A DNA stretch of 44,789 bases from a phage, in the sequence record PZ379181.1; one strand, written 5' to 3'. Positions within the stretch are counted from its first letter, which is position 1, and every line of letters begins with the position of its first letter. Below, piece after piece: positions 1 through 44,789 of the stretch. The notes beneath the pieces are model-generated. The model did no database searches. It was not told the origin of the DNA and saw nothing but the letters and a program-made list of their open reading frames with translations. A program made the translations under genes and the position numbers.

Positions 1-83
1 TGTTTAACCGCATAGTTCTGCATGATGGGTTAGGTTTTCGCATTTATCGTGAAACGCTTTCGCGTTTTTCGTGCGCCGCTTCA
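1..83. repeat. Left copy of 83-bp inverted repeat (partner 44677-44759)
   Basis: Reverse complement of 1-83 equals 44677-44759 at 82/83 positions (mismatch 7/44753); verified base by base. Confidence 0.9.
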
Positions 84-265
84 CCGTATAGCATTGATTC
101 CTTTGCGAAGAAGACGGCACGATAGTTGCTATACTGAGATTGACCATCTTTATCCTTGTAACGCTCACTTAAATCAACCGCGTACATCTTCCAACTGCCA
201 TTTGCATTCTGACCTTCTTTAGTGAACGGAGCGCGACGGATAACACCAGTGATTACATGACTCAT
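44..265 (-). CDS. SSB-like OB-fold protein, short (73 aa), possibly truncated
   Basis: ATG start; N-terminal pattern V.ITG...DKDG...YRAVFFAK resembles the first half of bacterial SSB; last 13 codons lie inside the inverted repeat. Confidence 0.4.
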   Translation of the reverse strand: MSHVITGVIRRAPFTKEGQNANGSWKMYAVDLSERYKDKDGQSQYSNYRAVFFAKESMLYGEAAHEKRESVSR

Positions 266-956: not shown

Positions 957-1014
957 TAACTATCTCTCTTTCGTTTAAGTGGGGCAATCATACCTCACCT
1001 TTTGATTTTGTCTT

Positions 1015-1029
1015 TAGCAATTAGTGCTA
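1015..1029 (-). promoter_or_regulatory. TAGCA-N5-TGCTA operator/promoter module (upstream of erf)
   Basis: TAGCAattagTGCTA; contains the exonuclease stop TAG; TATGAT and AAACGAAAGAGAG leader follow on minus strand. Confidence 0.5.
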
Positions 1030-1998
1030 TTTTAGAAGTTCTTGATACTGCTTACTTACCCACTCAGGAATCATCAAATCTTGCTCTGTAATCCCATTGC
1101 TATACCCAGGCCATACATCAAGCTCCTTGCACTGTTTGTATGTTGCTAGTGCCTCACAATATTGTAAACGACCAATGCGAAGCTGTTCATCTGTAAGCGT
1201 GTAGCTCATTGGTAAGTAAGGCTCCGTTTTTTCCTGCGCCAGAAGTCGAACCACAACCTTACGCTTCTCGTTAAATGCCTTCACGAACAAGTCACGCTGA
1301 AGGCTCATTTTGCACAGGTATCCATGGTCATAAGCTGACTTGCCAAATCCTCTCGGGCTTGCGTCCGCCGTCGTCTTGTAGTCAGTAATGAAAACCACGC
1401 CATCAACAACATCCACGTGATCAAGCCTAACCTTAACACCACACCCAAGAATCTCACCAAAGATTGATAGCTCTTTCTGTGCTGTTGGTGAGTTAATAAT
1501 CGCATCGTAAGCTGGGATATTAGTAAGAACCTCGCGCATTGAGATTACCTTATCGTAATCTTTCGCAGTAACGAGCTCTTTGCCACTAATTAACGCCTCA
1601 GCGCTCTCCTGCTGCTCAATTAACCATTTAACAGGCCAATCCTCACCAGATTTATACATCATCTCCACGAGCTCGCTATATCCCTTCCCTGACGTGCCTG
1701 AAACTCCAACTTTTTTAAGCGCTGCGGATAAAGCCGTTTGGCTAGTAATCAATCCTTCCACTTCGTCAAAGTCAGTAGCTCGCATGTATGTTGAGTCAAA
1801 TACCTCGCGCTCTAGCATCATGCAGTGACTTAGTGTGCCAAATTTAAGTGCTGCGCTAGAGTTATTGCGCTGCTTAAACTTCCATTTAGCTGGTGAGGTA
1901 GCAAGAATCTCAGCCAGTGAAGAGCCAGAGATATGGTCTTGCTCTTCGTGATAGGATTCATTTGTTAGCTCGTCGTTCGTATAAACTTTAAATGTCAT
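1027..1998 (-). CDS. Recombination exonuclease (PD-(D/E)XK-like)
   Basis: 323 aa; D..D...DYK nuclease-like motif (VRLDHVDVVDGVVFITDYKT); directly upstream of erf. Confidence 0.55.
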   Translation of the reverse strand: MTFKVYTNDELTNESYHEEQDHISGSSLAEILATSPAKWKFKQRNNSSAALKFGTLSHCMMLEREVFDSTYMRATDFDEVEGLITSQTALSAALKKVGVSGTSGKGYSELVEMMYKSGEDWPVKWLIEQQESAEALISGKELVTAKDYDKVISMREVLTNIPAYDAIINSPTAQKELSIFGEILGCGVKVRLDHVDVVDGVVFITDYKTTADASPRGFGKSAYDHGYLCKMSLQRDLFVKAFNEKRKVVVRLLAQEKTEPYLPMSYTLTDEQLRIGRLQYCEALATYKQCKELDVWPGYSNGITEQDLMIPEWVSKQYQELLK

Positions 1999-2196: not shown

Positions 2197-2510
2197 TTCT
2201 GTATCTCTCTGTTTGCTTGCTTGCTTGCTTTCGATGGTTTAACTATATATTCAGCGCCGCACCCAGTCCAATTGGTTTCGCCAATCGTTGATTTAAGTTT
2301 ACGCGTGAATTCTTGTAATTCCGTGTGTACATTGGAACTAGTTACGTTTTTTGGTACCTGAGCCAAGCTATAGCTCAATGTAAATAGTGCGTATATCATG
2401 TATATCATTTATTGCTGAGGGTGCATTGGTATAGCTACCGCGCAATACTGTATAAATCCACATGATATTAAAATTATAACCGAAACACTCCATAAGAGCA
2501 GTTACATGAT

Positions 2511-2590
2511 ATACATAGTAATATATATAATAATAATAATAAGAGTAAAAGGTTGATATATATATATATTTTAATGTAACCAATGCGTAA
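2511..2590. repeat. AT-rich block with (ATA)n tract, copy A
   Basis: About 85 percent identical to 30296-30373, same orientation; both lie in divergent intergenic regions. Confidence 0.8.
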
Positions 2591-2666
2591 ATTGGCGTAA
2601 CATTGCGTATATCATTTTTCGCGGATGAGATTGCATACATCGAGTTACATCGGTTACGCGTAAACA

Positions 2667-2681
2667 TAGCACTAATTGCTA
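2667..2681 (+). promoter_or_regulatory. TAGCA-N5-TGCTA operator/promoter module (upstream of methyltransferase gene)
   Basis: TAGCActaatTGCTA followed by TATAGT-like -10 and ACAAACAACGAGAGAG leader. Confidence 0.5.
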
Positions 2682-2740
2682 AAACTGATCCGCAAAACCG
2701 GGTATAGTTAGCAACACAAACAACGAGAGAGAATTTTAAA

Positions 2741-3430
2741 ATGGTTATCTGGTCTTTATTTGATGGTTCTGGTCTGGCGGTAAAGGATTGGGCTGAAGCT
2801 GGCCACACTTGCTACTGTTTCAACTTTGATGAGTCTGACCACGGCAGCTACAGTGACTTAAATGCAAAGGTTGAGCATGAGAACATCACATACGTTAACG
2901 CATGGATAGATGCTGACTTCGATTTTGATGTGAAACCTGATTTTATAATGGCGTTCCCTCCATGCACTGACTTAGCCGTGAGCGGATCAAGACACTTTGA
3001 ACGCAAGTGTATAGCTAACCCTAACTTCCAAATTGAAGCTGCGGAGACGTGCAAGATTGCTTTTAATCTTGCTGAAAAATACGGAGTACCATACATGATC
3101 GAGAACCCAATCAGCGTACTGTCATCACTTTGGCGAAAACCTGATAACACCTTCCACCCATATGAATACGGAGGCTATTTGCCGGAAGATGATTTACACC
3201 CGTTTTTTAGCGACCTAATAAAGCCAAAAGACGCATATCCCAAGAAGACATGCATTTGGTATGGCAATGGGTTTAAATGGCCAGAGGCAATTCCAGTGGA
3301 CGTTAACGGTGGATTCTCTGACCAATACAAGAAGCTAGGCGGGAAGAGCAATAAGACAAAGGTAATTCGCAGCCTAACTCCTCGCGGTTTTGCAAAAGCC
3401 GTCTTCATTGCAAATAGCACCAATTGCTAA
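2741..3430 (+). CDS. DNA methyltransferase (SAM-dependent; class uncertain)
   Basis: 229 aa; FDGSG (FxGxG SAM motif), then FPPC and ENP in the order seen in C5-MTase motifs I/IV/VI; could equally be a T1 Dam-like enzyme. Confidence 0.5.
   Translation: MVIWSLFDGSGLAVKDWAEAGHTCYCFNFDESDHGSYSDLNAKVEHENITYVNAWIDADFDFDVKPDFIMAFPPCTDLAVSGSRHFERKCIANPNFQIEAAETCKIAFNLAEKYGVPYMIENPISVLSSLWRKPDNTFHPYEYGGYLPEDDLHPFFSDLIKPKDAYPKKTCIWYGNGFKWPEAIPVDVNGGFSDQYKKLGGKSNKTKVIRSLTPRGFAKAVFIANSTNC
3415..3429 (+). promoter_or_regulatory. TAGCA-N5-TGCTA operator/promoter module (upstream of lipoprotein gene)
   Basis: TAGCAccaatTGCTA; its TAA is the stop codon of the methyltransferase ORF. Confidence 0.5.
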
Positions 3431-3498
3431 AGACAAATCTCAAGGATGAGATATCATTACTCCATTGAAACGAAACACACCTTCTAAGGAATACGAAA

Positions 3499-14637: not shown

Positions 14638-14698
14638 TTCACTAATATCTCATTTCGTTTCGATGAATGAACTATACAGCAATCCGCGATTTGGTCTT

Positions 14699-14713
14699 TA
14701 ACAAAAAGTGCTA
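14699..14713 (-). promoter_or_regulatory. Operator/promoter module (degenerate half TAACA) upstream of 82-aa gene
   Basis: TAACAaaaagTGCTA with downstream TATAGTT...CATCGAAACGA leader. Confidence 0.45.
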
Positions 14714-14718
14714 TCAAT

Positions 14719-21409: not shown

Positions 21410-22643
21410 TGATTGTTACCTCTGTCTCAATTGAACCTTCACCAATCTTAACCTCAGGGGCTAATGCGCGCAAGGTATCTCGTGCTTCGTCTGCATCCAT
21501 CACGCCGTTAGTGATAAGAGCAGTAATTGAATCAACGTTATTCTTCAGTACTTCAGCGCGGTCTTTCTTCGATTCCTGAGCTAGAGGGTTAAACTCAACT
21601 GACCATTCTTGCTCGGTTGTGACGAACGGGATTAAGAACCCAAGAACTGGAAGTAGCTCTTCGTTACGCTTGCGGTCAATCAACTTATGGAATGTCTCTA
21701 GCGCTGTGTTTTGGCTAGATGATAACCCGCCAACGTTACGACCTTTGAGAATGATTTCATGGATACCGCTCAGAGCAACAATTCTGTCGAACTTCTTATC
21801 GAGGAATCCATCAATCCCACCAATATCCGAGTTAAGAACGCTGTACTCTTCAGCTTCAGCGTCGATACCAATCGCGCGACCAACGCCAGAGTTATCATCA
21901 ACCTGGGCAAGCCTCAACCTGGCCGCACCAAAACCTTCCGCGTCGTCACACAGTTCAGCAAGGCCTTTAGCCTTCCACACCGCCTGCTGCTTGCGGCGCA
22001 ATAACTGAGTTGCCAGTTTCTCACACGTCTGATAATCCTTGATTGATTCAAGCAGGTCAGGAACCAGAACGCTAGCACCCCACCCGTCATTACCGCGACG
22101 CAATGAACTAGGAATCTTCTCGCCATCCATAATGTGAACTCGCGAGTAGTGCACATCATAAAACATGGCGCCACCTTCTGGCGTGATGCGGTACGTTAAT
22201 GGCTTACCGAATCGCACATTGCGAGGGTTTTCCTCCTTAGTCTGAACTCTTACCTGGCTACGCTCATAAACGCGAAGTGATTCAAGTTCCGCGCCTTCAC
22301 GTACCGGGCTAGTTAGCGCACGATTGTCCTTAGCGATAGCCACAATTGCAGAGCCGCCAAATAACCTCGCCCATGACCATGCGTCAGAGATTGACTCGTT
22401 AACCTTCAGGTAATCCCACCTGGACCAGAATTCACCTTCGTCATCAATACCATCGATATGGAAACCTGCGGCGATTGCTGTCTCCGGTATGGTGTCGACG
22501 ATGCGGCGTACAATTGAGTTTGATGCGTACAGTGAATCAGCGAAAGGAGGTGTAAGATACGTGTTGCCAAAGTGCCCGTAAATCTCGCTACCATCACTGG
22601 AGCCACCAAGAAATTGCGTGGCGTATGAATCTGCTTTTACCAT
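21366..22643 (-). CDS. Portal protein
   Basis: Start moved to ATG 22643 (TGGAG RBS) because the longer ORF runs into the upstream terminator; about 425 aa; position after terminase. Confidence 0.8.
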   Translation of the reverse strand: MVKADSYATQFLGGSSDGSEIYGHFGNTYLTPPFADSLYASNSIVRRIVDTIPETAIAAGFHIDGIDDEGEFWSRWDYLKVNESISDAWSWARLFGGSAIVAIAKDNRALTSPVREGAELESLRVYERSQVRVQTKEENPRNVRFGKPLTYRITPEGGAMFYDVHYSRVHIMDGEKIPSSLRRGNDGWGASVLVPDLLESIKDYQTCEKLATQLLRRKQQAVWKAKGLAELCDDAEGFGAARLRLAQVDDNSGVGRAIGIDAEAEEYSVLNSDIGGIDGFLDKKFDRIVALSGIHEIILKGRNVGGLSSSQNTALETFHKLIDRKRNEELLPVLGFLIPFVTTEQEWSVEFNPLAQESKKDRAEVLKNNVDSITALITNGVMDADEARDTLRALAPEVKIGEGSIETEVTINETSEDPLEVPADN

Positions 22644-22656
22644 TTTATTTGCTCCA

Positions 22657-22680
22657 ATAAAAAGCCCCATTTAGGGGCTT
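22657..22680 (-). terminator. Hairpin plus T-run between 117-aa gene and portal gene
   Basis: AGCCCCTAAATGGGGCT followed by TTTTTATT on minus strand. Confidence 0.55.
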
Positions 22681-22701
22681 AGTTTAGCATAGCTTTTATG
22701 G

Positions 22702-23055
22702 TTACTCGAATTTTACTTCGAACTTGATTGATGATGTTTTCACTCCATTAAGTGTTAACTGGCGAACCTCCCTTCTGACTTCATAAAATGCCTCTTTAGT
22801 TACTATGTCTTTGTTGATGAAGTATTTAATCCCAGCCTTTTCAACTTTAAAATTATCACCTTTAACGACAAAATCGGTAGGCTCTATAACTTCGAAATCA
22901 TAAACACTAAGATTAATTACGCCCACATAGCCTTTATCATCCTTAACTTTGACGTATTCATTATTACTTTCAGACGTTCTTGATAAGTCATAAATCTTAC
23001 CAACGGTAAATTCAAAATAACCATATTTTTTATACCCTTTAAATACTGCTTTCAT
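22702..23055 (-). CDS. hypothetical protein (117 aa)
   Basis: ATG start; own operator module upstream; between terminase and portal genes. Confidence 0.5.
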   Translation of the reverse strand: MKAVFKGYKKYGYFEFTVGKIYDLSRTSESNNEYVKVKDDKGYVGVINLSVYDFEVIEPTDFVVKGDNFKVEKAGIKYFINKDIVTKEAFYEVRREVRQLTLNGVKTSSIKFEVKFE

Positions 23056-23112
23056 TTTTTACTCCTCTCGTTTGCGTGAAGTAACTATAAGCCATCCTTG
23101 GCGGCACGTCTT

Positions 23113-23127
23113 TAGCAAAACGTGCTA
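23113..23127 (-). promoter_or_regulatory. TAGCA-N5-TGCTA operator/promoter module (upstream of 117-aa gene)
   Basis: TAGCAaaacgTGCTA; its TAG is the terminase large-subunit stop codon. Confidence 0.5.
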
Positions 23128-24696
23128 TTTGATGCCAGCGAGGCGCATCATCCTCGATTTAGGGTCTTCTGCAATGTTCAGTACCAGGTTTACGGCCATT
23201 GTCAAACAGTCTATCTGGTCATCGTGAACATGTGAATCATCTGCCGTGAATGCCGCAATCTCCGTTAGCAAGCCATTAAGCCAAGTAGCAGACTCCGGAA
23301 GGATTACGTTACCAGCTTTAATCTGCGGCAATGCACTCATTACGCGAGTCAGCTTATCGTTATCCGGAACGTACGGCTCGATAGGCGTTCGCATAACCCT
23401 TCCGGCTGATTGAATCAGGCCAATACCAGAGGCTTTCTTCTCGATGATGATTTTACGAAGGATGCCATCTATCTGATTGGATGCCCTAGCCATCTTCTCG
23501 AAATCCAATAACTCAGCCTCGAGCTCAGGAGCTTCAAATTTACCGCGCCGCTGGTCAAGCAGATAAATCTTCCCATCCTTATAACCCCATAGCTGCATGA
23601 CGCTAAAGTCGCTGTAACTTTTGGTTGTCATCGCAGTATCAAGGACCATAAACCTGTAATCGTACTTAGCTGGCGGTCGCAGAGTGTCGCTAATGCGTTG
23701 AAGCCAGTCTACGTTAATCAGGTTGCCGCCAAGTGCTACTGGTTCTTGCTGATACTGGCTAAGGAATGTATAGCTATCAGAATCCCACATTGCAACTAGG
23801 TCGTGAACAGATTCCTTGCCAGGGAAATAGCTATAGTACCTAACACCATCACGCTCAATATATTCGCTTGATAGAACGTCATCAATGAATTGCCGCTTAA
23901 TCCAGTCAGGAAGCGTGTCGACGTAATCCTCAGTTACGAGCGCCGGTATCTTAATCAAGTCGAAGCTAATACCCATACCGCCATTCATCATGAACCACGT
24001 ACTATCATTCACATGAAGGCGCTGTTGGATAGAGATAATCGGCGTCGCCTTTCCTTTTACGGAGCTCGCCCTACGAGAGCGTATTGTATTCTTTAGCATC
24101 ACGTGATTGTTAGCGCGAAAAACAGCAGAAAGCATGTCGGCTGGTTTGTCAAAATCATCTAACAGAACCGCTCCGCTATATGAATCCGTTATATATCCAC
24201 CCCTTGCGCCGGTTATTTGGCCTCCAGCAGCCTTAGATATTGACTCAAACCGAACCTTACCAGACTCATCCAGAACTTGAAGCTCATCATCCTTGCACGT
24301 ACCGAACTTGCATGGGAATAACTCCTGGAACTCAACAGACTTAATCAGGTCCCGAACTCGCTTGGAGTTACGCTTAACAAGTGAGTCGGCAAACGAGATG
24401 TTCAGGTTCCTGACCTTCTTTAGCTTAACCATCGAGTAGGCCGGGAAGTGAATTGAAGCTATCTCTGTTTTTCCACTTCCTGGAGCGATGTTAATGATTG
24501 TGTCCTTGCGCTCACCAGCGATAATCTCGTCAATGATTCGACACAGGTATTTGTGATGCCAGTTAGGGATGTATCGCTCGCCCTGGGTAAGTTGGAACCA
24601 CACCCGCAAGAATCCCTCGAAACTATGAGTGGATATAGCCTTAACTGCCATCTTTTCTGCTGGCGTCATTTCTTCCCATACTAATGTTTCACTCAT
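23125..24696 (-). CDS. Terminase large subunit
   Basis: Start at ATG 24696 with GGAGAG RBS; Walker A NIAPGSGKTE; about 523 aa. Confidence 0.9.
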   Translation of the reverse strand: MSETLVWEEMTPAEKMAVKAISTHSFEGFLRVWFQLTQGERYIPNWHHKYLCRIIDEIIAGERKDTIINIAPGSGKTEIASIHFPAYSMVKLKKVRNLNISFADSLVKRNSKRVRDLIKSVEFQELFPCKFGTCKDDELQVLDESGKVRFESISKAAGGQITGARGGYITDSYSGAVLLDDFDKPADMLSAVFRANNHVMLKNTIRSRRASSVKGKATPIISIQQRLHVNDSTWFMMNGGMGISFDLIKIPALVTEDYVDTLPDWIKRQFIDDVLSSEYIERDGVRYYSYFPGKESVHDLVAMWDSDSYTFLSQYQQEPVALGGNLINVDWLQRISDTLRPPAKYDYRFMVLDTAMTTKSYSDFSVMQLWGYKDGKIYLLDQRRGKFEAPELEAELLDFEKMARASNQIDGILRKIIIEKKASGIGLIQSAGRVMRTPIEPYVPDNDKLTRVMSALPQIKAGNVILPESATWLNGLLTEIAAFTADDSHVHDDQIDCLTMAVNLVLNIAEDPKSRMMRLAGIK

Positions 24697-25774: not shown

Positions 25775-25850
25775 TGGTGTTCCGCACTGGACTCGAACCA
25801 GTAACTAAGACTTAGGAGGTCTTTGCGTTATCCTGTTACGCCAGCAGAAC
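25775..25850 (-). tRNA. tRNA-Arg (anticodon CCU)
   Basis: 76 nt folded by hand: 7-bp acceptor stem GTTCTGC/GCGGAAC, D arm GCGT/ACGC, anticodon loop CTCCTAA, T arm ACTGG-TTCGAGT-CCAGT, discriminator A, encoded CCA. Confidence 0.85.
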
Positions 25851-26793: not shown

Positions 26794-26852
26794 ATCTCTA
26801 TCTCTCTTCGTTGTTTGATGGGTTAATTATATGGCATCCATGCCTGTCATGT

Positions 26853-26993
26853 TTAGCAATTCGTGCTATCCATTTTATCTTCACGCTCTTTCCATAGATT
26901 CATTAGCTCGAAGTACATCATGGCAACCTCGCCAGTCTTAGCCTCATCCATCATCCGTTTAGCCCACTGGCTTGGTGTTTCGTAGTTATCCAT
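26853..26993 (-). CDS. hypothetical small protein (46 aa)
   Basis: Hand-translated; stop codon lies inside operator module. Confidence 0.3.
   Translation of the reverse strand: MDNYETPSQWAKRMMDEAKTGEVAMMYFELMNLWKEREDKMDSTNC
26854..26868 (-). promoter_or_regulatory. TAGCA-N5-TGCTA operator/promoter module
   Basis: TAGCAattcgTGCTA with hairpin, TATAATTA and CCCATCAAACAACGAAGAGAG leader before ATG 26793. Confidence 0.5.
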
Positions 26994-28139: not shown

Positions 28140-28198
28140 ATCTATACTCCATCTCGTTGTCGATGTGGTAATTATGCCGGATTTCTCCGGCAATTGTT

Positions 28199-28213
28199 TA
28201 GCAATTCATGCTA
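28199..28213 (-). promoter_or_regulatory. TAGCA-N5-TGCTA operator/promoter module (exemplar)
   Basis: In gene orientation: ATAGCATGAATTGCTAAAC, hairpin GCCGGAGAAATCCGGC, ATAATTA, CCACATCGACAACGAG, GGAG, ATG 28139. Confidence 0.55.
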
Positions 28214-28363
28214 TTCACCGATTTCATCACGAAGAACATAACACTCAACACCCCCTCCAAGAACGTCCAGCTGAGATTTTGCATCTTCGTAACACTCATA
28301 AGCCCGAATATGCTTAACGCTGTTGAATTTTCCCGTATAGTATGTGTGAACGTAATAAATCAT
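28211..28363 (-). CDS. hypothetical small protein (50 aa)
   Basis: Hand-translated; stop TAG inside operator; ATGA overlap upstream. Confidence 0.3.
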   Translation of the reverse strand: MIYYVHTYYTGKFNSVKHIRAYECYEDAKSQLDVLGGGVECYVLRDEIGE

Positions 28364-28820: not shown

Positions 28821-28880
28821 CACATCCTCTTTTGCTTTGCTTCAATAAGGCCACTATATCAAATGGCCTTGCGGAAGGTT

Positions 28881-28895
28881 TAGCAATTCGTGCTA
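28881..28895 (-). promoter_or_regulatory. TAGCA-N5-TGCTA operator/promoter module
   Basis: TAGCAattcgTGCTA; downstream GATATAGT -10-like and AAAGAGGATGTG leader. Confidence 0.5.
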
Positions 28896-28896
28896 T

Positions 28897-29082
28897 TCAA
28901 AACTTAACATCAATTATGACTTCAACCATCTCCTGCCCAAGCCGGTAGGAGTCGCCCCAAAGAAGTAGTCCCATAAACTCATCCTTACTAAAAGTGTTGG
29001 CATTTACAGTTCTAAGATAGCCACGATGGATAACAGTATCGCCAATCTTAACTTCGCTCTTATGTACCATTTTAGTTTTCAT
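28897..29082 (-). CDS. hypothetical protein (61 aa)
   Basis: ATG start. Confidence 0.4.
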   Translation of the reverse strand: MKTKMVHKSEVKIGDTVIHRGYLRTVNANTFSKDEFMGLLLWGDSYRLGQEMVEVIIDVKF

Positions 29083-30036: not shown

Positions 30037-30295
30037 ATTCGTTACTCCTGATTGGTTGCTCTTCGTTAAGATGAAACCATGGTATCATGAATATACGCGT
30101 TATCAAGTGTTATGTTGTGTTTATATCTGCATTGGTTACGCTTTTTGACCTCTCAGCCCAGCTATAGCTGGTGTAATTACCCTGTGTAAGATTTTACGCG
30201 GATTCGCCGGGGGTATGCATATGTATCTATATAGATAAAATTAGTAGTTTTCATAGAAAAACTATCGACCCATCCATACGACCAATCTACACCAT

Positions 30296-30373
30296 ATACA
30301 TACATATATATAATAATAATAATAATATAGTAAAAGGTTGATATATATAGATATTATTATGTAACCATTGCGT
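30296..30373. repeat. AT-rich block with (ATA)n tract, copy B
   Basis: About 85 percent identical to 2511-2590. Confidence 0.8.
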
Positions 30374-30521
30374 AATCTAGCGTGGTAGGCGTGTATGATT
30401 CTTCGGAAGCGCACCTCATATACACACCATAACTTCGATAACGTGTATATCCAAATTGGCTCAGCAAGAATCAAAATCAACTTGTATGGTAGTCCATCCA
30501 CCATTCATTCACCCCACATCG

Positions 30522-30622: not shown

Positions 30623-30637
30623 TATAAATCCAACGAA

Positions 30638-30652
30638 TAGCACTTTTTGCTA
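30638..30652 (+). promoter_or_regulatory. TAGCA-N5-TGCTA operator/promoter module (plus-strand operon)
   Basis: TAGCActtttTGCTA followed by TATGTATTCATCGAAACGG. Confidence 0.5.
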
Positions 30653-30883
30653 ATGCACAATCATTAGTAAGTTGCTACTATGTATTCATCGAAACGGTGC
30701 TGGACTCTGAGTCACTTCCGAAAGGAACCAAAAGAGTGAACGACACCGCGCAATGTGAGGAAGCGTTACCTTACCCACCAAAGCGCCTTGCGGGTCCTTT
30801 TGATAGGATGCCGGGCCGGGTTTAAAATCCCGAGTTGTAGTGAGTACGTTGAAGAGATTTCGATAACAAGAAAACATAGAGAG

Positions 30884-31637: not shown

Positions 31638-31801
31638 TGCTTTTACCATCTGATATAAACTATTTCGATCTGGAAATAATTAGTGCTTACAGCGGAAAGG
31701 GTTGGCCTTGCGGGGACTGGTTTAACGAGGACCTGCTTGAGTCTCACGAGATTATGTTGAAGGCAATTGAGAAGGCCAGAAAAAATAGCACTAATTGCTA
31801 A
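31637..31801 (+). CDS. hypothetical small protein (54 aa)
   Basis: Hand-translated; TAATG overlap upstream; stop TAA inside operator motif. Confidence 0.3.
   Translation: MLLPSDINYFDLEIISAYSGKGWPCGDWFNEDLLESHEIMLKAIEKARKNSTNC
31786..31800 (+). promoter_or_regulatory. TAGCA-N5-TGCTA operator/promoter module
   Basis: TAGCActaatTGCTA followed by GTATATTTACTCCATCGAAACGAAAGAGAG and ATG 31861. Confidence 0.5.
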
Positions 31802-31860
31802 AACTCACCGCCACGGATGGCGTATATTTACTCCATCGAAACGAAAGAGAGCAAGAGATC

Positions 31861-32411: not shown

Positions 32412-32578
32412 AATTATACATTGTAAGTGGTTGCACACACTATGATGGAAGCGAAGTGATTGCCGCTTTCGATGAAGAATTCAAAGCACAGGAGTTTAAA
32501 TATAACAAAGAAATATCTTCAGAAAATCACTTTGACTACTACAAGATAGATTGCATCTTACTAAATAGCACTAATTGA
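32408..32578 (+). CDS. hypothetical small protein (56 aa)
   Basis: ATGA overlap upstream; stop inside operator motif. Confidence 0.3.
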   Translation: MKLYIVSGCTHYDGSEVIAAFDEEFKAQEFKYNKEISSENHFDYYKIDCILLNSTN

Positions 32579-32580
32579 TA
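32566..32580 (+). promoter_or_regulatory. Operator/promoter module (degenerate right half TGATA)
   Basis: TAGCActaatTGATA, then TATAAT at +23 and GCGGAGAGAAG before ATG 32639. Confidence 0.45.
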
Positions 32581-32638
32581 ATGCATTATAAGCGGCTATT
32601 GATATAATGGCCGCTCAGAAACAATGCGGAGAGAAGTA

Positions 32639-35956: not shown

Positions 35957-36014
35957 TTTTGAATCCTCTGTTGTTTTCGATGTAGTAATTATGCCGGATT
36001 ACTCCGGCGATTGT

Positions 36015-36568
36015 TTAGCAATTCGTGCTATTTATTACGTGCATTACCAAAGCAGAGGTTCCATCAATATCACCATCTACAACATGAACGTCAATTTCTC
36101 TTGCGCAGACACCGCGAATGTAGGAGCGGCTATCTCCATCAAAAGTATAGCCAGGCCTAAAAAGTCTAATCAAAGTAACTTCAACCCCTGAATCAATGAG
36201 AGTATTAATCTCGCTAGCGAAGCCACCATCAGCACAGATATAGCAACCATCACCAAGTGATTGCGCTAGCCTTTTACCGAAAACATCATCACCAAAGACT
36301 GGCTTCATAACTGACTCACTAATCCAAATCATAAATTCACGAACCGTCATTCCACCAAGAAATTCATGTGGTGATTCTTTGTACTCTCGGTCATCGTAAT
36401 TCTTAATAAATTCATCAAACTCATCGCTTGATAGTATTCCTTTTGCAACATTAAACATTGGTGACTTGAATGAAACCTTATCCTTGCAAATTCCAAGATT
36501 AACAATGATATCTGCAACTGTATCTTTTCCAGCACCAGGGGTGCATTAAGGATGATTAACTTTTTCAT
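36015..36568 (-). CDS. dNMP kinase-like P-loop kinase, frameshifted
   Basis: N-terminus MKKLIILNAP; P-loop PGAGKDT and the rest of the protein are in the -1 frame after a 4-nt run (plus-strand GGGG 36538-36541); resembles T4 gp1 dNMP kinase. Confidence 0.55.
36016..36030 (-). promoter_or_regulatory. TAGCA-N5-TGCTA operator/promoter module
   Basis: TAGCAattcgTGCTA; contains the kinase stop codon; hairpin GCCGGAGTAATCCGGC and CATAAT at +23. Confidence 0.55.
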
Positions 36569-36569
36569 T

Positions 36570-37043
36570 TTATTCTCCGTGAGATTCGCAGTCTTTTGGT
36601 AATTCTTTATATTCACAAACTGACATTACAGTATATCCGCAATTCCTTAGGTGACTGATAACATTAGGATTATCCTCAAAGATTATCACACTTGCTTTGT
36701 CACCATTACACAAATCATTTAGCCACATCTCTTTAATGATATAGTCATTTCTGTTATCCAATCTACTCCTCATATATATTCCATCATAATTAATATTATT
36801 ATACTGAAGCCATTCAAGCGTCATACATTCGACTTCGTCACTTCTTGAAGTCATGATGTAAACTGGCGATAACTCAGCTAACGCATTCATCATGTTTATC
36901 ATTGGAATTATCGGTGAATCTCCAGAACAGGCTCTATTGTAATCACTCCAACTTGAAGTCAAGTGAAGGTCACTAGATGGTAAGAGGTGGCTTCTATGTT
37001 CATTGTTAGCAATAGTTCCATCAATATCAAACACGTAAATCAT
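36570..37043 (-). CDS. HAD-family phosphatase
   Basis: 157 aa; N-terminal FDIDGT motif (DxDGT); ends 1 nt before kinase start. Confidence 0.65.
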   Translation of the reverse strand: MIYVFDIDGTIANNEHRSHLLPSSDLHLTSSWSDYNRACSGDSPIIPMINMMNALAELSPVYIMTSRSDEVECMTLEWLQYNNINYDGIYMRSRLDNRNDYIIKEMWLNDLCNGDKASVIIFEDNPNVISHLRNCGYTVMSVCEYKELPKDCESHGE

Positions 37044-39371: not shown

Positions 39372-39437
39372 TTTCTTTCTCTCTTTGTGTGTTTCGTTTC
39401 GATGAGTTGATAATACACCAACTCACCAATTCGTCTT

Positions 39438-39452
39438 TAGCAATTCGTGCTA
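39438..39452 (-). promoter_or_regulatory. TAGCA-N5-TGCTA operator/promoter module
   Basis: TAGCAattcgTGCTA; contains the VRR-NUC gene stop codon. Confidence 0.5.
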
Positions 39453-39869
39453 TTTTCTTATCATCTCTGCGAATGCCGCAAGAAAACCCTCTCTTCCATA
39501 AGCCACCGCTGCGAAACCGCCTGATTCCCTTACGCTTTTTAGGAATGACTTTTGCTCATTGCTAACTGGGCTTGCTTGCGTTTTACCAGCCCTCTTTAAC
39601 TCTATGGCGCCAAATGGATAACCGCCACGCAATGACTCAGGTATCAGAAATAAGCAGTCTGACACACCTTTGAGAAGCCCCTTGGCTTGGTCTTTTCTTG
39701 CTTGACCAATGCTCTTTTTATTTTCGTTAATCGTGTGCCAGTAAACAATCTGCGGATAGTTGTATTTCACCCAATCAGAGCAGAAGATTTGTTCATCGTC
39801 TTCCTTTGGGCATGACTTCACCGGTCCGCCATAGAACTCGAGGTAATCACCTTTGTCTGTGATTTTCAT
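39450..39869 (-). CDS. VRR-NUC domain nuclease
   Basis: 139 aa; GVSDCLFLIP...GAIELKRAG matches the PD-(D/E)XK VRR-NUC pattern; directly downstream of helicase. Confidence 0.6.
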   Translation of the reverse strand: MKITDKGDYLEFYGGPVKSCPKEDDEQIFCSDWVKYNYPQIVYWHTINENKKSIGQARKDQAKGLLKGVSDCLFLIPESLRGGYPFGAIELKRAGKTQASPVSNEQKSFLKSVRESGGFAAVAYGREGFLAAFAEMIRK

Positions 39870-39870
39870 A

Positions 39871-41865
39871 TCAATCCTCCATCGTAAATGATTTGTTGGC
39901 GATAATATCTTGCGACTTCTGATTCTTGCGGTGCGTAATCCTTAGCGGCGCACGGAAAAGATGTGCATTTGTCATAATCATTTTAGCATTACGCAATCTG
40001 CCAATCCTAAAAGCCTCAGTCCTGTTCTCGATGTGAGTTGAGCAAAACGCCTTCCATTTGACAGAACAAACACGATGGTCTGACTCCGGGAAGAATGTTT
40101 CATAAGCTCGGAACTTATCTCCACTATGAGCCATTACCTCATATGAAGCAACGATCCCTGACTGGTTCTTTGTTAACCCAATCTTGAAGTCATAAACTCG
40201 CAACCAGTCCCCCTTACGATACATTTTTCCTGATAACTTAGCATTCGGGTCTATGAGCATCTCACCACAGCATCTGCAATTCTTAGCTGCAATATCATTC
40301 TTCTCACCGCATCCTTTCTTAATGATAGCTTTGGTCTGTGGGTCCGCTATATCTTCACACAGTCTAAACTGAAAGAAGTGCTCACAGCGCTTCCAGTCAA
40401 TTACGTTATTGCAGCGCCTGGCTAATTGAGAGTTCACATAAGAGCATGCCGGACAGATTCTTGGCTTATCACCACGCTTTCTTGCTGACCTAAATTTCTG
40501 GTCTTGTACCTCTTCTATAATTGGGTCGAAGTAAAGTTCAGCCATATCATCAAGCGTTCCAGCAAAATCAAGAACAACATGGTCATCTTTTACCATTCCA
40601 GCTTCTTTGTGCTTCTTCTTAAGGATACGCATACCACGACCAAGCAACTGAATGAGTAGAGTAATGCTACCAACCTTCCTCAGGATAATGCTTGTATCCC
40701 ACGGGGGGCAGTTTACGCCAGTTGTGAGGCAACCAATCTGAAATATGAACTTATATTCTCCGTTGGCTGCCTTCTCAAGTATCTCTCTACGCTTCTTCTC
40801 ACCAGTGGAGTTGGTAACTATCGCCCAAGTAACACCTTCTGGAAGTGCGGCTGCCGCCTCCTCGCAATGCTGTTTGCCAGCGCAAGTTACCAATGCAGCA
40901 TTCCTTGTTTCCATAAACTTAGCAGCAAATCCCATTATCTTTTGTGTCATCGTTTGGTTTTCGTGAATCTTTGCAGCCATCGCATCCATTTCTTTCTTGC
41001 TGAAGTCCTTAACCCCATCACTTCCATCAGGAGTGAACTCACTAAGGTCGTAGCCCAAATCACCAACTTCACCGTAGACAGTAGGAACAACGAACCCCAA
41101 GTCAACAAGGTAGCTGGTTGGCACTTGCATTACAGTTTTGCGCCAGAATCCACGGACATTTGGGTTACTAACTACAATGTGGTCGTTGTTACGGTACGGG
41201 CTGCCAGTCAAACCGAAGATGCGTAGTTCGCGACCATACTTCTCTTTGCAGCGTCTCTTCATCTCAGTAATGATTAGCGTGTACTGCGCACGACCAGTTC
41301 CGAGCAATCCGGTATTCACTCCATCCTTGAAAACCATCTCACCCTTCTTCGTGCTCATCTGCTCGAATGTTTCCTCGTTCTCTTCAGCTTCTACGATATC
41401 CATATGGTCAACCATATGACATTCATCTATCGCAATAACGGCAGGAACATAGTCACCAAGGCCCTTAAACAAGCCGTTAGCAGCCGTGCCCTCACTAGCC
41501 ACTATGGTTGGGTAGTAAACTGATTTAACGTTAAGGCCAGCGCAATAGACGCTATTACGGATGCCGAAGTTACGAAGCTCTTCAGCGTTCTGGCTGATAA
41601 TTTCTGACTGGCGAGAAAGCACCATGTAAGGAAGCCCAAGCTGTTCCATGCGCTTTCCAATCATGGCAAGAATAATTGTCTTACCAGCAGATACAGACAG
41701 GTCTGCGATGAATGGGGCCTCGTACTTTCCAATAGCCTTCCCAATTGCATCAAATGTCACACACTGGAATGGGTAAGGAGTGATTTCTCCAAACTGGTAA
41801 TCTCTCTGAATCTGCTTAATCTTCTCTTGATCGAAGTTGGCTACTAAGCGCTCTACTGGAAGCAT
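39871..41865 (-). CDS. Superfamily 2 ATP-dependent DNA helicase
   Basis: 664 aa; Walker A SAGKT, DECH box (AIDECHMV); Cys-rich C-terminal region. Confidence 0.8.
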   Translation of the reverse strand: MLPVERLVANFDQEKIKQIQRDYQFGEITPYPFQCVTFDAIGKAIGKYEAPFIADLSVSAGKTIILAMIGKRMEQLGLPYMVLSRQSEIISQNAEELRNFGIRNSVYCAGLNVKSVYYPTIVASEGTAANGLFKGLGDYVPAVIAIDECHMVDHMDIVEAEENEETFEQMSTKKGEMVFKDGVNTGLLGTGRAQYTLIITEMKRRCKEKYGRELRIFGLTGSPYRNNDHIVVSNPNVRGFWRKTVMQVPTSYLVDLGFVVPTVYGEVGDLGYDLSEFTPDGSDGVKDFSKKEMDAMAAKIHENQTMTQKIMGFAAKFMETRNAALVTCAGKQHCEEAAAALPEGVTWAIVTNSTGEKKRREILEKAANGEYKFIFQIGCLTTGVNCPPWDTSIILRKVGSITLLIQLLGRGMRILKKKHKEAGMVKDDHVVLDFAGTLDDMAELYFDPIIEEVQDQKFRSARKRGDKPRICPACSYVNSQLARRCNNVIDWKRCEHFFQFRLCEDIADPQTKAIIKKGCGEKNDIAAKNCRCCGEMLIDPNAKLSGKMYRKGDWLRVYDFKIGLTKNQSGIVASYEVMAHSGDKFRAYETFFPESDHRVCSVKWKAFCSTHIENRTEAFRIGRLRNAKMIMTNAHLFRAPLRITHRKNQKSQDIIANKSFTMED

Positions 41866-41933
41866 TTTAAATATCCCGACATTTTGTTAGTTCGTTGCAT
41901 TGCTGTATAATAACAACTATCGACCCTATTGTT

Positions 41934-41948
41934 TAACAAAAAATGCTA
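41934..41948 (-). promoter_or_regulatory. Operator/promoter module (TAACA variant) between divergent helicase and HTH genes
   Basis: TAACAaaaaaTGCTA, 14 nt upstream of the HTH gene ATG and upstream of helicase gene. Confidence 0.45.
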
Positions 41949-41961
41949 TTGAGGTAATGAG

Positions 41962-42435
41962 ATGTGTGAAATTGACAAGCGAACTATCAACGGCAATAAC
42001 GGAACCATCCGCACGCAAGACAAGAAACAGCGCAAACGACCGTCAGGCTACTACGTATTGAAAGATGAAGTAAAGGCTGGGCTAAGAGCTCGTCTGGAGA
42101 TGGTTCTTGACTTCTACGGCACGAAGGCCAATATCGCCAAGCAGTTAAATGTATCTCACCAGACTGTAGAACAATGGTTTGATCGCGGTATGATTTCGGC
42201 TCGAGGCGCCCAGCGAGCACATAATGCGTACAAGAGAAATAAGGGAGGGTTCCGAGCTACTTTCTGCCGACCAGACCTGCAATTTGACGGTAACGGTAAG
42301 CCTCTGACGCTTAGATGCAAGAAGCGCCACATGCTACGCGTGGTTACTGAGGCTGAACTAGCAACAAAGCCACCTTGTCGACCGTGGCGCAAGAATAAGA
42401 TTGCCAACGAAGCCGCACGAAAAGCTAAAGAGTAA
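41962..42435 (+). CDS. HTH DNA-binding protein (Cro/YdaS-like), candidate regulator
   Basis: 157 aa; TKANIAKQLNVSHQTVEQWFDRG helix-turn-helix; basic C-terminus. Confidence 0.55.
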   Translation: MCEIDKRTINGNNGTIRTQDKKQRKRPSGYYVLKDEVKAGLRARLEMVLDFYGTKANIAKQLNVSHQTVEQWFDRGMISARGAQRAHNAYKRNKGGFRATFCRPDLQFDGNGKPLTLRCKKRHMLRVVTEAELATKPPCRPWRKNKIANEAARKAKE

Positions 42436-42486
42436 ATAATTGGATGTGCCATAATCGGTACATCCTTTTTTATTGGAGAGAAGAAA

Positions 42487-42966
42487 ATGAACTGGCATGA
42501 TTATTTTTACTATGTAGATGGCAAATTGCATTGGAAGATTAGCACTGCAAGACGTGTTAAGGTTGGCGATGAGTGCAACTCACTATCTACATCTGGCTAT
42601 TACAAAGTGTCTGTTAATGGCTTTAGGACTTATGTACATAGAGTTGTGTGGGAGATGTTTAATGGAGAACTTCAAAATGGCGACTACATTGATCATATAA
42701 ACCATAACAAATTAGATAACAGAATAGAAAACCTAAGAGTAACAACAAATCAAGGTAACTCAAGAAATTGCAAGCTTAGCGTTTTATCAACAACTGGTTA
42801 TTGTGGAGTGGCAAAGCTAAATCACGGAAAATTTAAGGCTCACATCAAGGTTGACGGCAAGCAGCTACACCTTGGGAACTTCGATACTCCAGAGCGGGCG
42901 TATAAAGTAAGAATTGAAGCAGAGGGAAAATACAACTTTCACGAAAATCACGGGTTAAGCAAATGA
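42487..42966 (+). CDS. HNH homing endonuclease with AP2-type domain
   Basis: YVHRVVW...IDHINHNKLDNRIENLR; GGAGAG RBS; ATGA overlap with primase start. Confidence 0.8.
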   Translation: MNWHDYFYYVDGKLHWKISTARRVKVGDECNSLSTSGYYKVSVNGFRTYVHRVVWEMFNGELQNGDYIDHINHNKLDNRIENLRVTTNQGNSRNCKLSVLSTTGYCGVAKLNHGKFKAHIKVDGKQLHLGNFDTPERAYKVRIEAEGKYNFHENHGLSK

Positions 42967-43971: not shown

Positions 43972-44679
43972 ATGGCAATTTATGACTTAGGAACAGCATC
44001 ACTAGCCTCAAATGGCGAGGTTACTGGCGTAGGTACTACATGGAAAGCACCTCTTACACTGATTCGTGTAGGTGCTACTATCATTTTCAAAACCAGCCCT
44101 CTGAAAATTTACACCATCTCTGAAATCATCAGCGATACTCAGGTTAATGTTTATAATCCAAGTTCTGAAACTGTTCCCGCTGGTACTGGTTACGCAATTC
44201 TTGCTCATGATGGAATTACTGTTCAGGGGTTGGCGCAGGATGTTGCGGAAACATTGCGTTACTACCAGTCAAAAGAGACTTCTATTGAAAGTCTACTGCA
44301 ATTTATCGGGCAAGATACTTTCGATTGGCCTCGCTTCGAGCAGCTTGCAACCCAATCAACCACTGGGGCTGCTGAGGCGCTAGCTAGTCAGATCGCTGCC
44401 GCTGAAAGTGCGAGTGCAGCCGCCTCAGCAAGAGACGCTACGACAGAGGCACGCGATGCTACTATTAGCGCAATTAATAATGCTGGTGACGCCGGAACAT
44501 TAGCAACGCTTGCATCTTACAATATAGCAAACTCAGTAGCAATTAGAGCTACCTCATTTGATTGGCAAACTTACGCATTTAAAAACGGCTCAAAAGTTTT
44601 AGTGTCAAAGTCAGCAATGGTAAACACTCCTTCTAGTGTAAATGACCTTATATCAAGTGCCGGTGCTAGTAAAAGCTGA
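43972..44679 (+). CDS. Tail fibre protein, N-terminal part only (235 aa)
   Basis: Ala/Ser-rich fibre-like N-terminal region; stop codon TGA 44677-44679 is the first 3 nt of the inverted repeat. Confidence 0.5.
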   Translation: MAIYDLGTASLASNGEVTGVGTTWKAPLTLIRVGATIIFKTSPLKIYTISEIISDTQVNVYNPSSETVPAGTGYAILAHDGITVQGLAQDVAETLRYYQSKETSIESLLQFIGQDTFDWPRFEQLATQSTTGAAEALASQIAAAESASAAASARDATTEARDATISAINNAGDAGTLATLASYNIANSVAIRATSFDWQTYAFKNGSKVLVSKSAMVNTPSSVNDLISSAGASKS

Positions 44680-44759
44680 AGCGGCGCACGAAAAACGCGA
44701 AAGCGTTTCACGATAAATGCGAAAACCTAACCCATCATGCAGAACTATGCGGCTAAACA
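44677..44759. repeat. Right copy of 83-bp inverted repeat (partner 1-83)
   Basis: See left copy; 30 nt of unique sequence (44760-44789) follows. Confidence 0.9.
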
Positions 44760-44789
44760 CCATCGAAATTATCTCATAACTGAACGAAG

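What the first reader, a model, noticed from the sequence alone, without database searches (positions are those of the whole stretch)
1..83. 83-bp inverted repeat links both window ends and cuts the two terminal ORFs
Positions 1-83 are the exact reverse complement of 44677-44759 apart from one mismatch (7/44753). The right copy begins exactly at the stop codon of a tail-fibre-like ORF that is only 235 aa. The left copy holds the last 13 codons and stop of a 73-aa SSB-like ORF. If the genome is circular or permuted with the window ends adjacent, the copies are only 30 bp apart, forming a ~196-bp near-perfect palindrome between convergent genes. This could be a real inverted duplication that truncated the fibre and/or SSB gene, a cruciform-forming recombination or packaging element, or an assembly foldback artefact. 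No invertase or protelomerase gene is present to explain it.
Basis: seen in the sequence. Interest (0 to 1): 0.65.

Follow-up and report, generated by a model that had tools for sequence, protein, structure and literature searches.

The report
Untrimmed nanopore adapters on contig ends
The inverted repeat at the two ends of this phage contig is leftover Oxford Nanopore rapid-barcoding adapter (barcode 24 plus the Mu transposase end), not phage DNA, so it is a sequencing artefact that should be trimmed.

Summary
In detail: 1-83 is the reverse complement of 44677-44759 with one mismatch. The repeat is not phage sequence. Reading inward from each contig end it consists of the tail of the Oxford Nanopore (ONT) 'barcode flanking sequence' (…TGTTTAACC), the 24-nt ONT barcode BC24 (exact), and the terminal 50 bp of the phage Mu right end (exact). 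That Mu end is the MuA-transposase cargo end used in ONT rapid-barcoding kits. The right end runs 30 nt further, into the noisy linker and the ONT sequencing adapter (CTTCGTTCAGTTA). The same three-part unit, with other barcodes or none, sits at the ends of unrelated public assemblies, and this contamination is already described in the literature. Genuine phage DNA is 84-44676. It is collinear with a circular permutation of Drexlerviridae phage AN_ECEAS. About 2.1 kb is missing between the ends: the 3' part of the SSB-like gene (145 aa in the relative) and about 600 codons of the lateral tail-fibre gene (844 aa in the relative). Both 'short ORFs' are contig-end truncations that read into adapter; the fibre's 'stop codon' is the TGA that begins the Mu end. 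There is no palindrome, duplication, transposon insertion or telomere. This is not a real feature and is of low interest.

The parts
1..9 (+). Last 9 nt (TGTTTAACC) of the ONT rapid-kit barcode flanking sequence GCTTGGGTGTTTAACC
   Evidence: Exact match in the alignment. [quoted passage not shown]
10..33 (+). ONT barcode BC24, GCATAGTTCTGCATGATGGGTTAG
   Evidence: Exact. The barcode table in PMC9229804 lists BC24 with this sequence. It occurs only at the two window ends.
34..83 (+). 50-nt phage Mu right-end segment (MuA transposase binding end; the 3' flank of the ONT rapid-barcoding cargo), ending ...CGCTTCA-3' where it is joined to phage DNA
   Evidence: 100% identical to the last 50 bp of Mu NC_000929 (36668-36717), and the identity stops at 50 bp. 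Exact in the window at 34-83 (-) and 44677-44726 (+).
84..265 (-). Genuine 5' part (about 60 codons) of the phage SSB-like gene, cut by the contig end
   Evidence: Residues 1-59 are about 93% identical (55 of 59) to the 145-aa AN_ECEAS protein, and similarity is lost where the adapter begins. Orthologues are annotated as SSB in ACG-M12 and OzMSK.
43972..44676 (+). Genuine 5' part (235 codons) of the lateral tail-fibre/tailspike gene, cut by the contig end
   Evidence: Aligns to residues 1-227 of the 844-aa AN_ECEAS fibre, nearly identical (1 difference) to residue 147 and then divergent. The homologues in ACG-M12 and OzMSK are 939 and 816 aa.
44677..44726 (-). Second copy of the 50-nt Mu R-end cargo flank (reverse complement); its first triplet TGA supplies the apparent fibre stop codon
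44727..44750 (-). Second copy of ONT barcode BC24 (reverse complement)
   Evidence: Exact.
44751..44789 (-).
   Evidence: Alignment to the expected read start. The same noisy string ...CTTCGTTCAGTTA-TCGGA-TTTGGGTGTTTAACC is seen at the ends of unrelated assemblies. The adapter sequence is quoted in PMC9965538.

Best explanation
Both arms are untrimmed Oxford Nanopore rapid-barcoding adapter. In that kit, a MuA transpososome carries a synthetic cargo: a 16-nt flanking sequence, a 24-nt barcode and the 50-nt Mu right end, 90 bp in all. The transpososome cuts the sample DNA and joins the 3' CA of the Mu end to the 5' end of each target strand, so every read starts with this cargo. The contig's left end was built from a plus-strand read that starts at window 84. 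The right end was built from a minus-strand read that starts at 44676. Because the cargo was not trimmed from reads or contig, it appears at the two ends in opposite orientation, which makes an 'inverted repeat'. The phage DNA between the arms (84-44676) is an incomplete linear contig, about 95% of a Braunvirinae/Drexlerviridae genome. Its two terminal genes are simply cut off. Shown here: the identity of every segment, its position and orientation, recurrence of the same unit in unrelated assemblies, and the missing ~2.1 kb. Inferred: that the two ends come from outermost reads of opposite strands, and why the assembler did not close the gap.
For: (1) 34-83 and 44677-44726 are 100% identical to the terminal 50 bp of the phage Mu right end, and identity stops at exactly 50 bp. 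(2) 10-33 and 44727-44750 are exactly ONT barcode BC24, as tabulated in PMC9229804. [quoted passage not shown] 44775-44789 is the ONT adapter string CTTCGTTCAGTTA. (4) The same architecture occurs at the ends of unrelated records. Streptomyces plasmid NZ_CP109216 carries the Mu end, BC10 and the flanking sequence at nt 26-135. Many other Streptomyces NBC plasmid termini have it too. Nine IMG/VR contigs of one metagenome carry the flanking sequence plus the Mu end 33-42 nt from a contig end. By contrast, eight genuine Mu-like prophage right ends lie further from any contig or locus end (at least 104 nt) and continue with native Mu sequence ...GCGCGAAAGCTAAA. (5) PMC13293122 describes exactly this 90-bp rapid-barcoding contamination in public assemblies, including barcode overhangs at opposite contig ends and the Streptomyces set. 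(6) There is no 5-bp target duplication: 44672-44676 is AAAGC and 84-88 is CCGTA. (7) The window is collinear with a circular permutation of AN_ECEAS. Only AN_ECEAS 21546-23932, which holds the rest of the SSB-like gene and the rest of the fibre gene, has no counterpart.
Against: No reads are available, so I cannot show directly that the ends are read starts, and I cannot say why ~2.1 kb was left unassembled. The outermost 28 nt on the right (44762-44789) match the expected adapter only in part. The same degraded string is seen in other contaminated assemblies. It is plausibly the click-chemistry junction between adapter and cargo, but that is an inference.
Confidence: 0.97

Rival explanations
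1. A genuine Mu or mini-Mu transposon lies between the fibre and SSB genes, either inserted in vivo or as an engineered in-vitro MuA insertion mutant with two R ends. The assembler broke in its inverted ends.
For: The 50-nt arms are authentic Mu R-end sequence in the orientation expected for a transposon flanked by phage DNA. Artificial mini-Mu elements do carry two R ends (my own knowledge).
Against: The Mu end is followed by an ONT barcode, the ONT flanking sequence and the ONT sequencing adapter, not by Mu sequence or a marker gene. There is no 5-bp target duplication. The two junctions lie ~2.1 kb apart in relatives rather than at one site. No Mu L end or Mu genes are present: nothing in the window except the two arms matches Mu (the Mu end occurs only twice), and no stretch lacking an AN_ECEAS match exceeds 780 bp.
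Confidence: 0.01
2. An assembly foldback or chimeric-read artefact copied real phage sequence in inverted orientation onto the other end.
For: Inverted terminal copies are a known signature of foldback chimeras.
Against: None of the repeated 83 nt is phage DNA. Homology to relatives ends a few bases from the adapter junction on the left (window 90, adapter ends at 83). On the right it already fades from 44411, inside the divergent part of the fibre gene, and protein similarity can be followed to about residue 227, 9 codons before the adapter. Every base of the arms is accounted for by adapter parts.
Confidence: 0.01
3. A real biological inverted repeat: terminal inverted repeats of a protein-primed or hairpin-ended linear genome, an invertible fibre segment, or a cruciform or bidirectional terminator between convergent genes.
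For: The repeat lies between convergent genes, one of them a tail-fibre gene. Inversion systems such as Mu G / P1 C act on fibre genes (my own knowledge).
Against: The sequence is synthetic adapter. The right arm is 30 nt from the end. Relatives are ordinary terminase-packaged Drexlerviridae whose fibre and SSB genes are separated by about 30 bp (35 bp in OzMSK, with an extra endonuclease gene between them in ACG-M12) and no such repeat.
Confidence: 0.005

Closest known systems
ONT rapid-barcoding adapter/barcode contamination of assemblies (Barbell paper, PMC13293122)
   Same: The same 90-bp unit (16-nt flanking sequence + 24-nt barcode + 50-nt Mu flank) is left at contig ends. The paper reports barcode overhangs at opposite ends of a contig and contamination of phage, plasmid and Streptomyces records. 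I saw the same unit in NZ_CP109216, PQ065999 and IMG/VR contigs.
   Different: Nothing essential. Here the same barcode (BC24) is on both ends, the left copy is clipped to 83 nt, and the right copy runs on into the sequencing adapter.
Right end (attR, R1-R2 sites) of bacteriophage Mu
   Same: The inner 50 nt of each arm are identical to Mu 36668-36717.
   Different: Native Mu continues inward with ...GCGCGAAAGCTAAA and has a different left end. Here the 50 nt are followed by an ONT barcode, and there are no Mu genes.
Artificial mini-Mu transposons with two R ends for in-vitro MuA mutagenesis (my own knowledge; MuA tagmentation oligos in PMC5517011)
   Same: Two inverted 50-bp Mu R ends flank other DNA, and MuA joins the end's 3' CA to the target.
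   Different: A real insertion gives a 5-bp target duplication at a single site and carries a marker. Here there is no duplication, the junctions are ~2.1 kb apart, and the 'cargo' is barcode plus adapter.

Membership tests
ONT rapid-barcoding (MuA cargo) adapter remnant | 50-nt Mu R-end flank GTTTTCGC...CCGCTTCA directly abutting the insert through its 3' CA | tested here: met
   Exact at 34-83 (+) and 44677-44726 (as reverse complement).
ONT rapid-barcoding (MuA cargo) adapter remnant | A 24-nt ONT barcode immediately 5' of the Mu flank | tested here: met
   BC24 is exact at 10-33 and 44727-44750.
ONT rapid-barcoding (MuA cargo) adapter remnant | Barcode flanking sequence GCTTGGGTGTTTAACC 5' of the barcode, preceded by the ONT sequencing adapter | tested here: met
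   The left end holds the last 9 nt, exact. The right end holds GGTGTTTAGCC (1 error), preceded by CTTCGTTCAGTTA. The 15 or so nt between them are degraded, as in other contaminated records.
ONT rapid-barcoding (MuA cargo) adapter remnant | Located at contig termini, at the 5' end of each strand, so inverted relative to each other | tested here: met
   Positions 1-83 and 44677-44789, with no internal copies. Adapter-bearing IMG/VR contigs and Streptomyces plasmids show the same placement.
Genuine Mu / mini-Mu transposon insertion | 5-bp direct target-site duplication flanking the element at one insertion site | tested here: not met
   AAAGC (44672-44676) against CCGTA (84-88). The flanks map ~2.1-2.4 kb apart in AN_ECEAS.
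Genuine Mu / mini-Mu transposon insertion | Mu or marker sequence inside the 50-nt ends (R3 region, L end, A/B genes) | tested here: not met
   The match to Mu stops at 50 nt. What follows is ONT barcode, whereas true Mu ends continue with GCGCGAAAGCTAAA.
Terminal inverted repeats of linear protein-primed or hairpin-telomere phage genomes | Repeat at both exact physical ends, made of genome-specific sequence and conserved in relatives | tested here: not met
   The right arm is 30 nt from the end. The sequence is synthetic. Relatives lack it, and the ends lie inside genes.
Invertase-driven tail-fibre switching segment (Gin/Cin type) | Short inverted crossover sites inside the fibre gene, alternative fibre 3' ends and a serine invertase gene | tested here: not met
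   The arms are adapter. The locus in relatives is fibre -> <- SSB, with no invertase or alternative exons annotated. I ran no domain search of the window's own ORFs for an invertase.

The most novel reading that the evidence does not exclude
The adapters are certainly artefacts, but the assembly may have stopped just here for a real reason. The missing ~2.1 kb starts in the hypervariable receptor-binding part of the lateral tail-fibre/tailspike gene. From residue ~148 onward, the window's fibre is at most 54% identical in protein to any GenBank phage. The phage stock might therefore hold two or more variants with different fibre modules, and the assembler could not resolve them.
Probability: 0.07. 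Interest if true: 0.2.

Novelty: not a real feature. Interest (0 to 1): 0.03.

Why it matters
This matters only as quality control. (1) Bases 1-83 and 44677-44789 should be trimmed before annotation or deposition. (2) The '73-aa SSB' carries 12-13 adapter-encoded residues plus an adapter-encoded stop, and the '235-aa tail fibre' owes its stop codon to the adapter's TGA. Both should be annotated as partial. (3) The contig is not a complete genome: about 2.1 kb, covering most of the receptor-binding fibre and the C-terminal half of the SSB-like protein, is missing. Host-range or completeness statements based on it would be wrong. (4) Left in place, the Mu end produces spurious 'Mu-like' or transposon hits and false links to other contaminated records, as documented in PMC13293122.

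Tried and rejected
I searched IMG/VR for exact copies of the phage DNA next to each junction (52-mer from 44625-44676; 55-mer from 91-145), hoping to recover a contig spanning the gap. Neither gave a match, so the missing sequence of this particular phage could not be recovered.

A tblastn search with the divergent fibre segment (residues 147-235) found only distant matches of 40-54% identity, all inside long fibre genes. That supports truncation but does not identify the missing C-terminus.

I searched the literature for the Mu-end string. The full 50-mer exceeds the tool's word limit. A 31-mer found MuA tagmentation oligos but no ONT document. The ONT link was instead established through the barcode table, the flanking sequence and the Barbell paper.

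A loose scan for internal adapter pieces (up to 3 errors) gave only chance-level hits for the short patterns and none for BC24 or the Mu end.

I considered and rejected a Mu insertion, a foldback, terminal inverted repeats or telomeres, and an invertible segment (see rivals and membership tests). I did not use the large protein-database searches or structure prediction, because the answer did not depend on them.

Full report
OBSERVATION. The repeat is real as sequence. Window 1-83 is the reverse complement of 44677-44759 with a single mismatch at 7/44753. The repeat finder lists it as the only long inverted pair (I1). Its 50-nt core occurs exactly twice, against zero in 100 shuffles. The ORF details also hold. 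ORF 43972-44679 (235 aa) stops at the TGA that opens the right arm. ORF 265-44 on the minus strand (73 aa) takes its last 12-13 codons and its stop from the left arm.

WHAT THE REPEAT IS MADE OF. A search of 50,697 phage records with the right end showed that 44677-44726 is 100% identical to the last 50 bp of bacteriophage Mu (NC_000929 36668-36717). The match ends abruptly at 50 bp.

The next 24 nt (10-33 on the left; 44727-44750 as reverse complement) are GCATAGTTCTGCATGATGGGTTAG. A nanopore paper's barcode table lists this as Oxford Nanopore (ONT) barcode BC24 (PMC9229804).

The outermost 9 nt on the left (TGTTTAACC) are the end of GCTTGGGTGTTTAACC. [quoted passage not shown] The same preprint states that ONT rapid barcoding uses a MuA transposase to fragment DNA and attach these oligonucleotides, with the sequencing adapter then added by click chemistry.

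On the right, the window continues 30 nt further. That last string belongs to the ONT sequencing adapter.

The parts add up as 16 + 24 + 50 = 90 bp. This is the length the Barbell paper gives for the rapid-barcoding region (PMC13293122).

INDEPENDENT CONTROLS. The same 50-mer was found in 26 plasmid records. Most of these are Streptomyces 'NBC' plasmids, where it sits within the first or last ~100 nt of the record. In NZ_CP109216 the Mu end is followed by the reverse complement of AAGCGTTGAAACCTTTGTCCTCTC, which is ONT BC10 in the same table, and then by GGTTAAACACCCAAATCCGATAACTGAACGAAGTACA.

In IMG/VR the 50-mer occurs in 17 contigs that fall into two clean classes. Nine contigs from one metagenome have ...CTTCGTTCAG...GGGTGTTTAACC directly upstream and lie 33-42 nt from a contig end; these are unbarcoded rapid adapters. 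The other eight have native Mu sequence ...GAAGCGCGAAAGCTAAA upstream and lie further from any contig or locus end (at least 104 nt); these are real Mu-like prophage ends. The window belongs to the first class.

The degraded string between adapter and flanking sequence looks similar in all of these assemblies. That fits a non-nucleotide click junction that basecalls poorly (an inference).

The Barbell paper reports this contamination across NCBI records. Its examples include the Streptomyces set, phages, and a plasmid with barcode overhangs at opposite contig ends. It also notes that Mu flank plus ONT barcode together make an endogenous Mu origin implausible. A phage-genome paper likewise describes trimming residual nanopore adapter from the termini of a Flye assembly (PMC9965538).

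WHY IT LOOKS LIKE AN INVERTED REPEAT. From established Mu transposition chemistry, MuA joins the 3' CA of its cargo end to the 5' end of each target strand. Every read therefore begins adapter - flanking sequence - barcode - Mu end - insert. A contig whose left edge comes from a plus-strand read and whose right edge comes from a minus-strand read carries the cargo at both ends in opposite orientation. The orientation seen here fits: ...CCGCTTCA-3' abuts phage DNA at 83/84, and its complement abuts at 44676/44677. That the ends are outermost read starts is an inference, because no reads were available.

WHAT THE PHAGE DNA IS. Bases 84-44676 belong to a Drexlerviridae (Braunvirinae) phage. Depending on the region, it is about 78-98% identical to Escherichia phages AN_ECEAS and ES.

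Whole-genome BLAST shows the window is collinear with a reverse-complemented circular permutation of AN_ECEAS. Window 90 corresponds to AN 21545; the alignment runs down through AN 1/48081 and on to AN 23933 at window 44411. The only AN_ECEAS segment with no counterpart is 21546-23932 (2387 bp). It holds the 3' part of a 145-aa SSB-like gene, a 30-bp spacer and most of an 844-aa tail-fibre gene.

The window's 235-aa ORF aligns to fibre residues 1-227. Its 73-aa ORF matches SSB residues 1-59, then diverges where the adapter starts.

The order helicase / regulator / primase / fibre -> <- SSB / Erf / exonuclease VIII is conserved in ACG-M12 and OzMSK. Their fibres are 939 and 816 aa, and their SSBs are 153 and 144 aa.

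After allowing for the 265 nt of divergent fibre sequence present at 44412-44676, about 2.1 kb is missing. The contig is therefore about 95% of the genome.

RIVALS. A real Mu or mini-Mu insertion is excluded. There is barcode and adapter inside the Mu ends, there is no 5-bp target duplication (AAAGC against CCGTA), and the two junctions are ~2 kb apart. A foldback of phage DNA is excluded because no base of the arms is phage DNA. Terminal inverted repeats, hairpin telomeres, an invertible fibre segment and a cruciform are excluded by the synthetic identity of the sequence and by its absence from all relatives.

WHAT REMAINS UNKNOWN. I cannot say why the assembler left ~2.1 kb unassembled. Low coverage, read filtering, or heterogeneity in the variable fibre module are all possible and cannot be told apart without reads. 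Exact-match searches of IMG/VR for the junction-proximal phage DNA found nothing.

VERDICT. This is not a biological feature. It is a known kind of library-preparation contamination on an incomplete contig. Trim 1-83 and 44677-44789, mark both terminal genes as partial, and re-assemble. Interest 0.03.

SEEN IN PASSING. The most interesting passing observation is a strongly over-represented promoter-like module. It has a TAGCA-N5-TGCTA palindrome (12 exact copies against 0.11 expected), then a fixed gap of about 22 nt, a -10-like hexamer and a conserved CATCGAAACGAAA leader. It lies in front of at least 11 genes or operons, and the palindrome is also enriched in AN_ECEAS (11 copies).

Noticed in passing
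window 1012-1031(-), 2665-2684(+), 3413-3432(+), 14696-14715(-), 23110-23129(-), 26851-26870(-), 28196-28215(-), 28878-28897(-), 30636-30655(+), 31784-31803(+), 32564-32583(+), 36013-36032(-), 39435-39454(-): A repeated, oriented promoter-like module: AATAGCACnAATTGCTAAAG (core palindrome TAGCA-N5-TGCTA, 12 exact copies against 0.11 expected), a fixed gap of 21-23 nt that often holds a small GC hairpin, a -10-like hexamer (TATAGT, TATGAT or CATAAT), a conserved CATCGAAACGAAA leader, an RBS and an ATG. A recognisable start codon follows at least 11 of the 13 sites. The TTGCTA-to--10 spacing is too long for a normal sigma-70 -35 element. The palindrome would centre near -42, a geometry like a class II activator site, and the phage's own HTH regulator (41962-42966 region) is a candidate binder. 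The palindrome is also enriched in AN_ECEAS (11 copies).
   Followed up: partly
window 44412-44676 (fibre residues ~148-235): The fibre gene switches from near-identity with AN_ECEAS (residues 1-147) to a divergent module. By tblastn the best protein identity to any GenBank phage is 40-54%. This fits a new receptor-binding variant whose C-terminal ~600 residues are missing from the contig.
   Followed up: partly
window 84-89: The six phage bases next to the left adapter (reverse complement ATACGG) differ from AN_ECEAS by an in-frame 6-nt gap (M-L-Y-G against M-L-A-W-Y-D). This is either a real two-codon difference or poor consensus at a read start.
   Followed up: no
window 25775-25850 (-): A tRNA-Arg (anticodon CCT) gene lies just upstream of the small terminase gene region.
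   Followed up: no
window 2503-2598 and 30288-30383: A 96-nt AT-rich direct repeat (76% identical, full of ATATATA and TAATAATAA runs) occurs in two regions with little or no strong coding signal, each a short way upstream of a copy of the promoter-like module. It may be regulatory or origin-like. It remains unexplained.
   Followed up: no
L001 = PQ065999.1 (Proteus phage vB_PmiA_PM1), record ~41944-42059: This public 'complete genome' contains an internal ONT rapid-barcoding unit (Mu end, 24-nt barcode-like segment, flanking sequence, adapter remnant) 129 nt from the record end. A 'hypothetical protein' CDS (41832-42065) is annotated across it. It is the same artefact, trapped inside the record.
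   Followed up: partly
L002 = NZ_CP109216.1 nt 26-135; other Streptomyces NBC plasmid records; IMG/VR contigs of metagenome 3300045125 (L005, L006, L008, L010, L012, L014, L017, L019, L020): ONT rapid adapter remnants (BC10 in NZ_CP109216; unbarcoded in the metagenome contigs) sit at the termini of many unrelated public sequences. Any search with a Mu R-end will cross-link these records.
   Followed up: yes
L023 = PP944860.1 (AN_ECEAS) record ends; window 21582-21655: Window 21582-21655 aligns to both the first ~75 nt and the last ~75 nt of the AN_ECEAS record. That record therefore seems to carry a ~74-bp direct terminal overlap, probably an assembler k-mer overlap left on a circularly permuted genome.
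   Followed up: no
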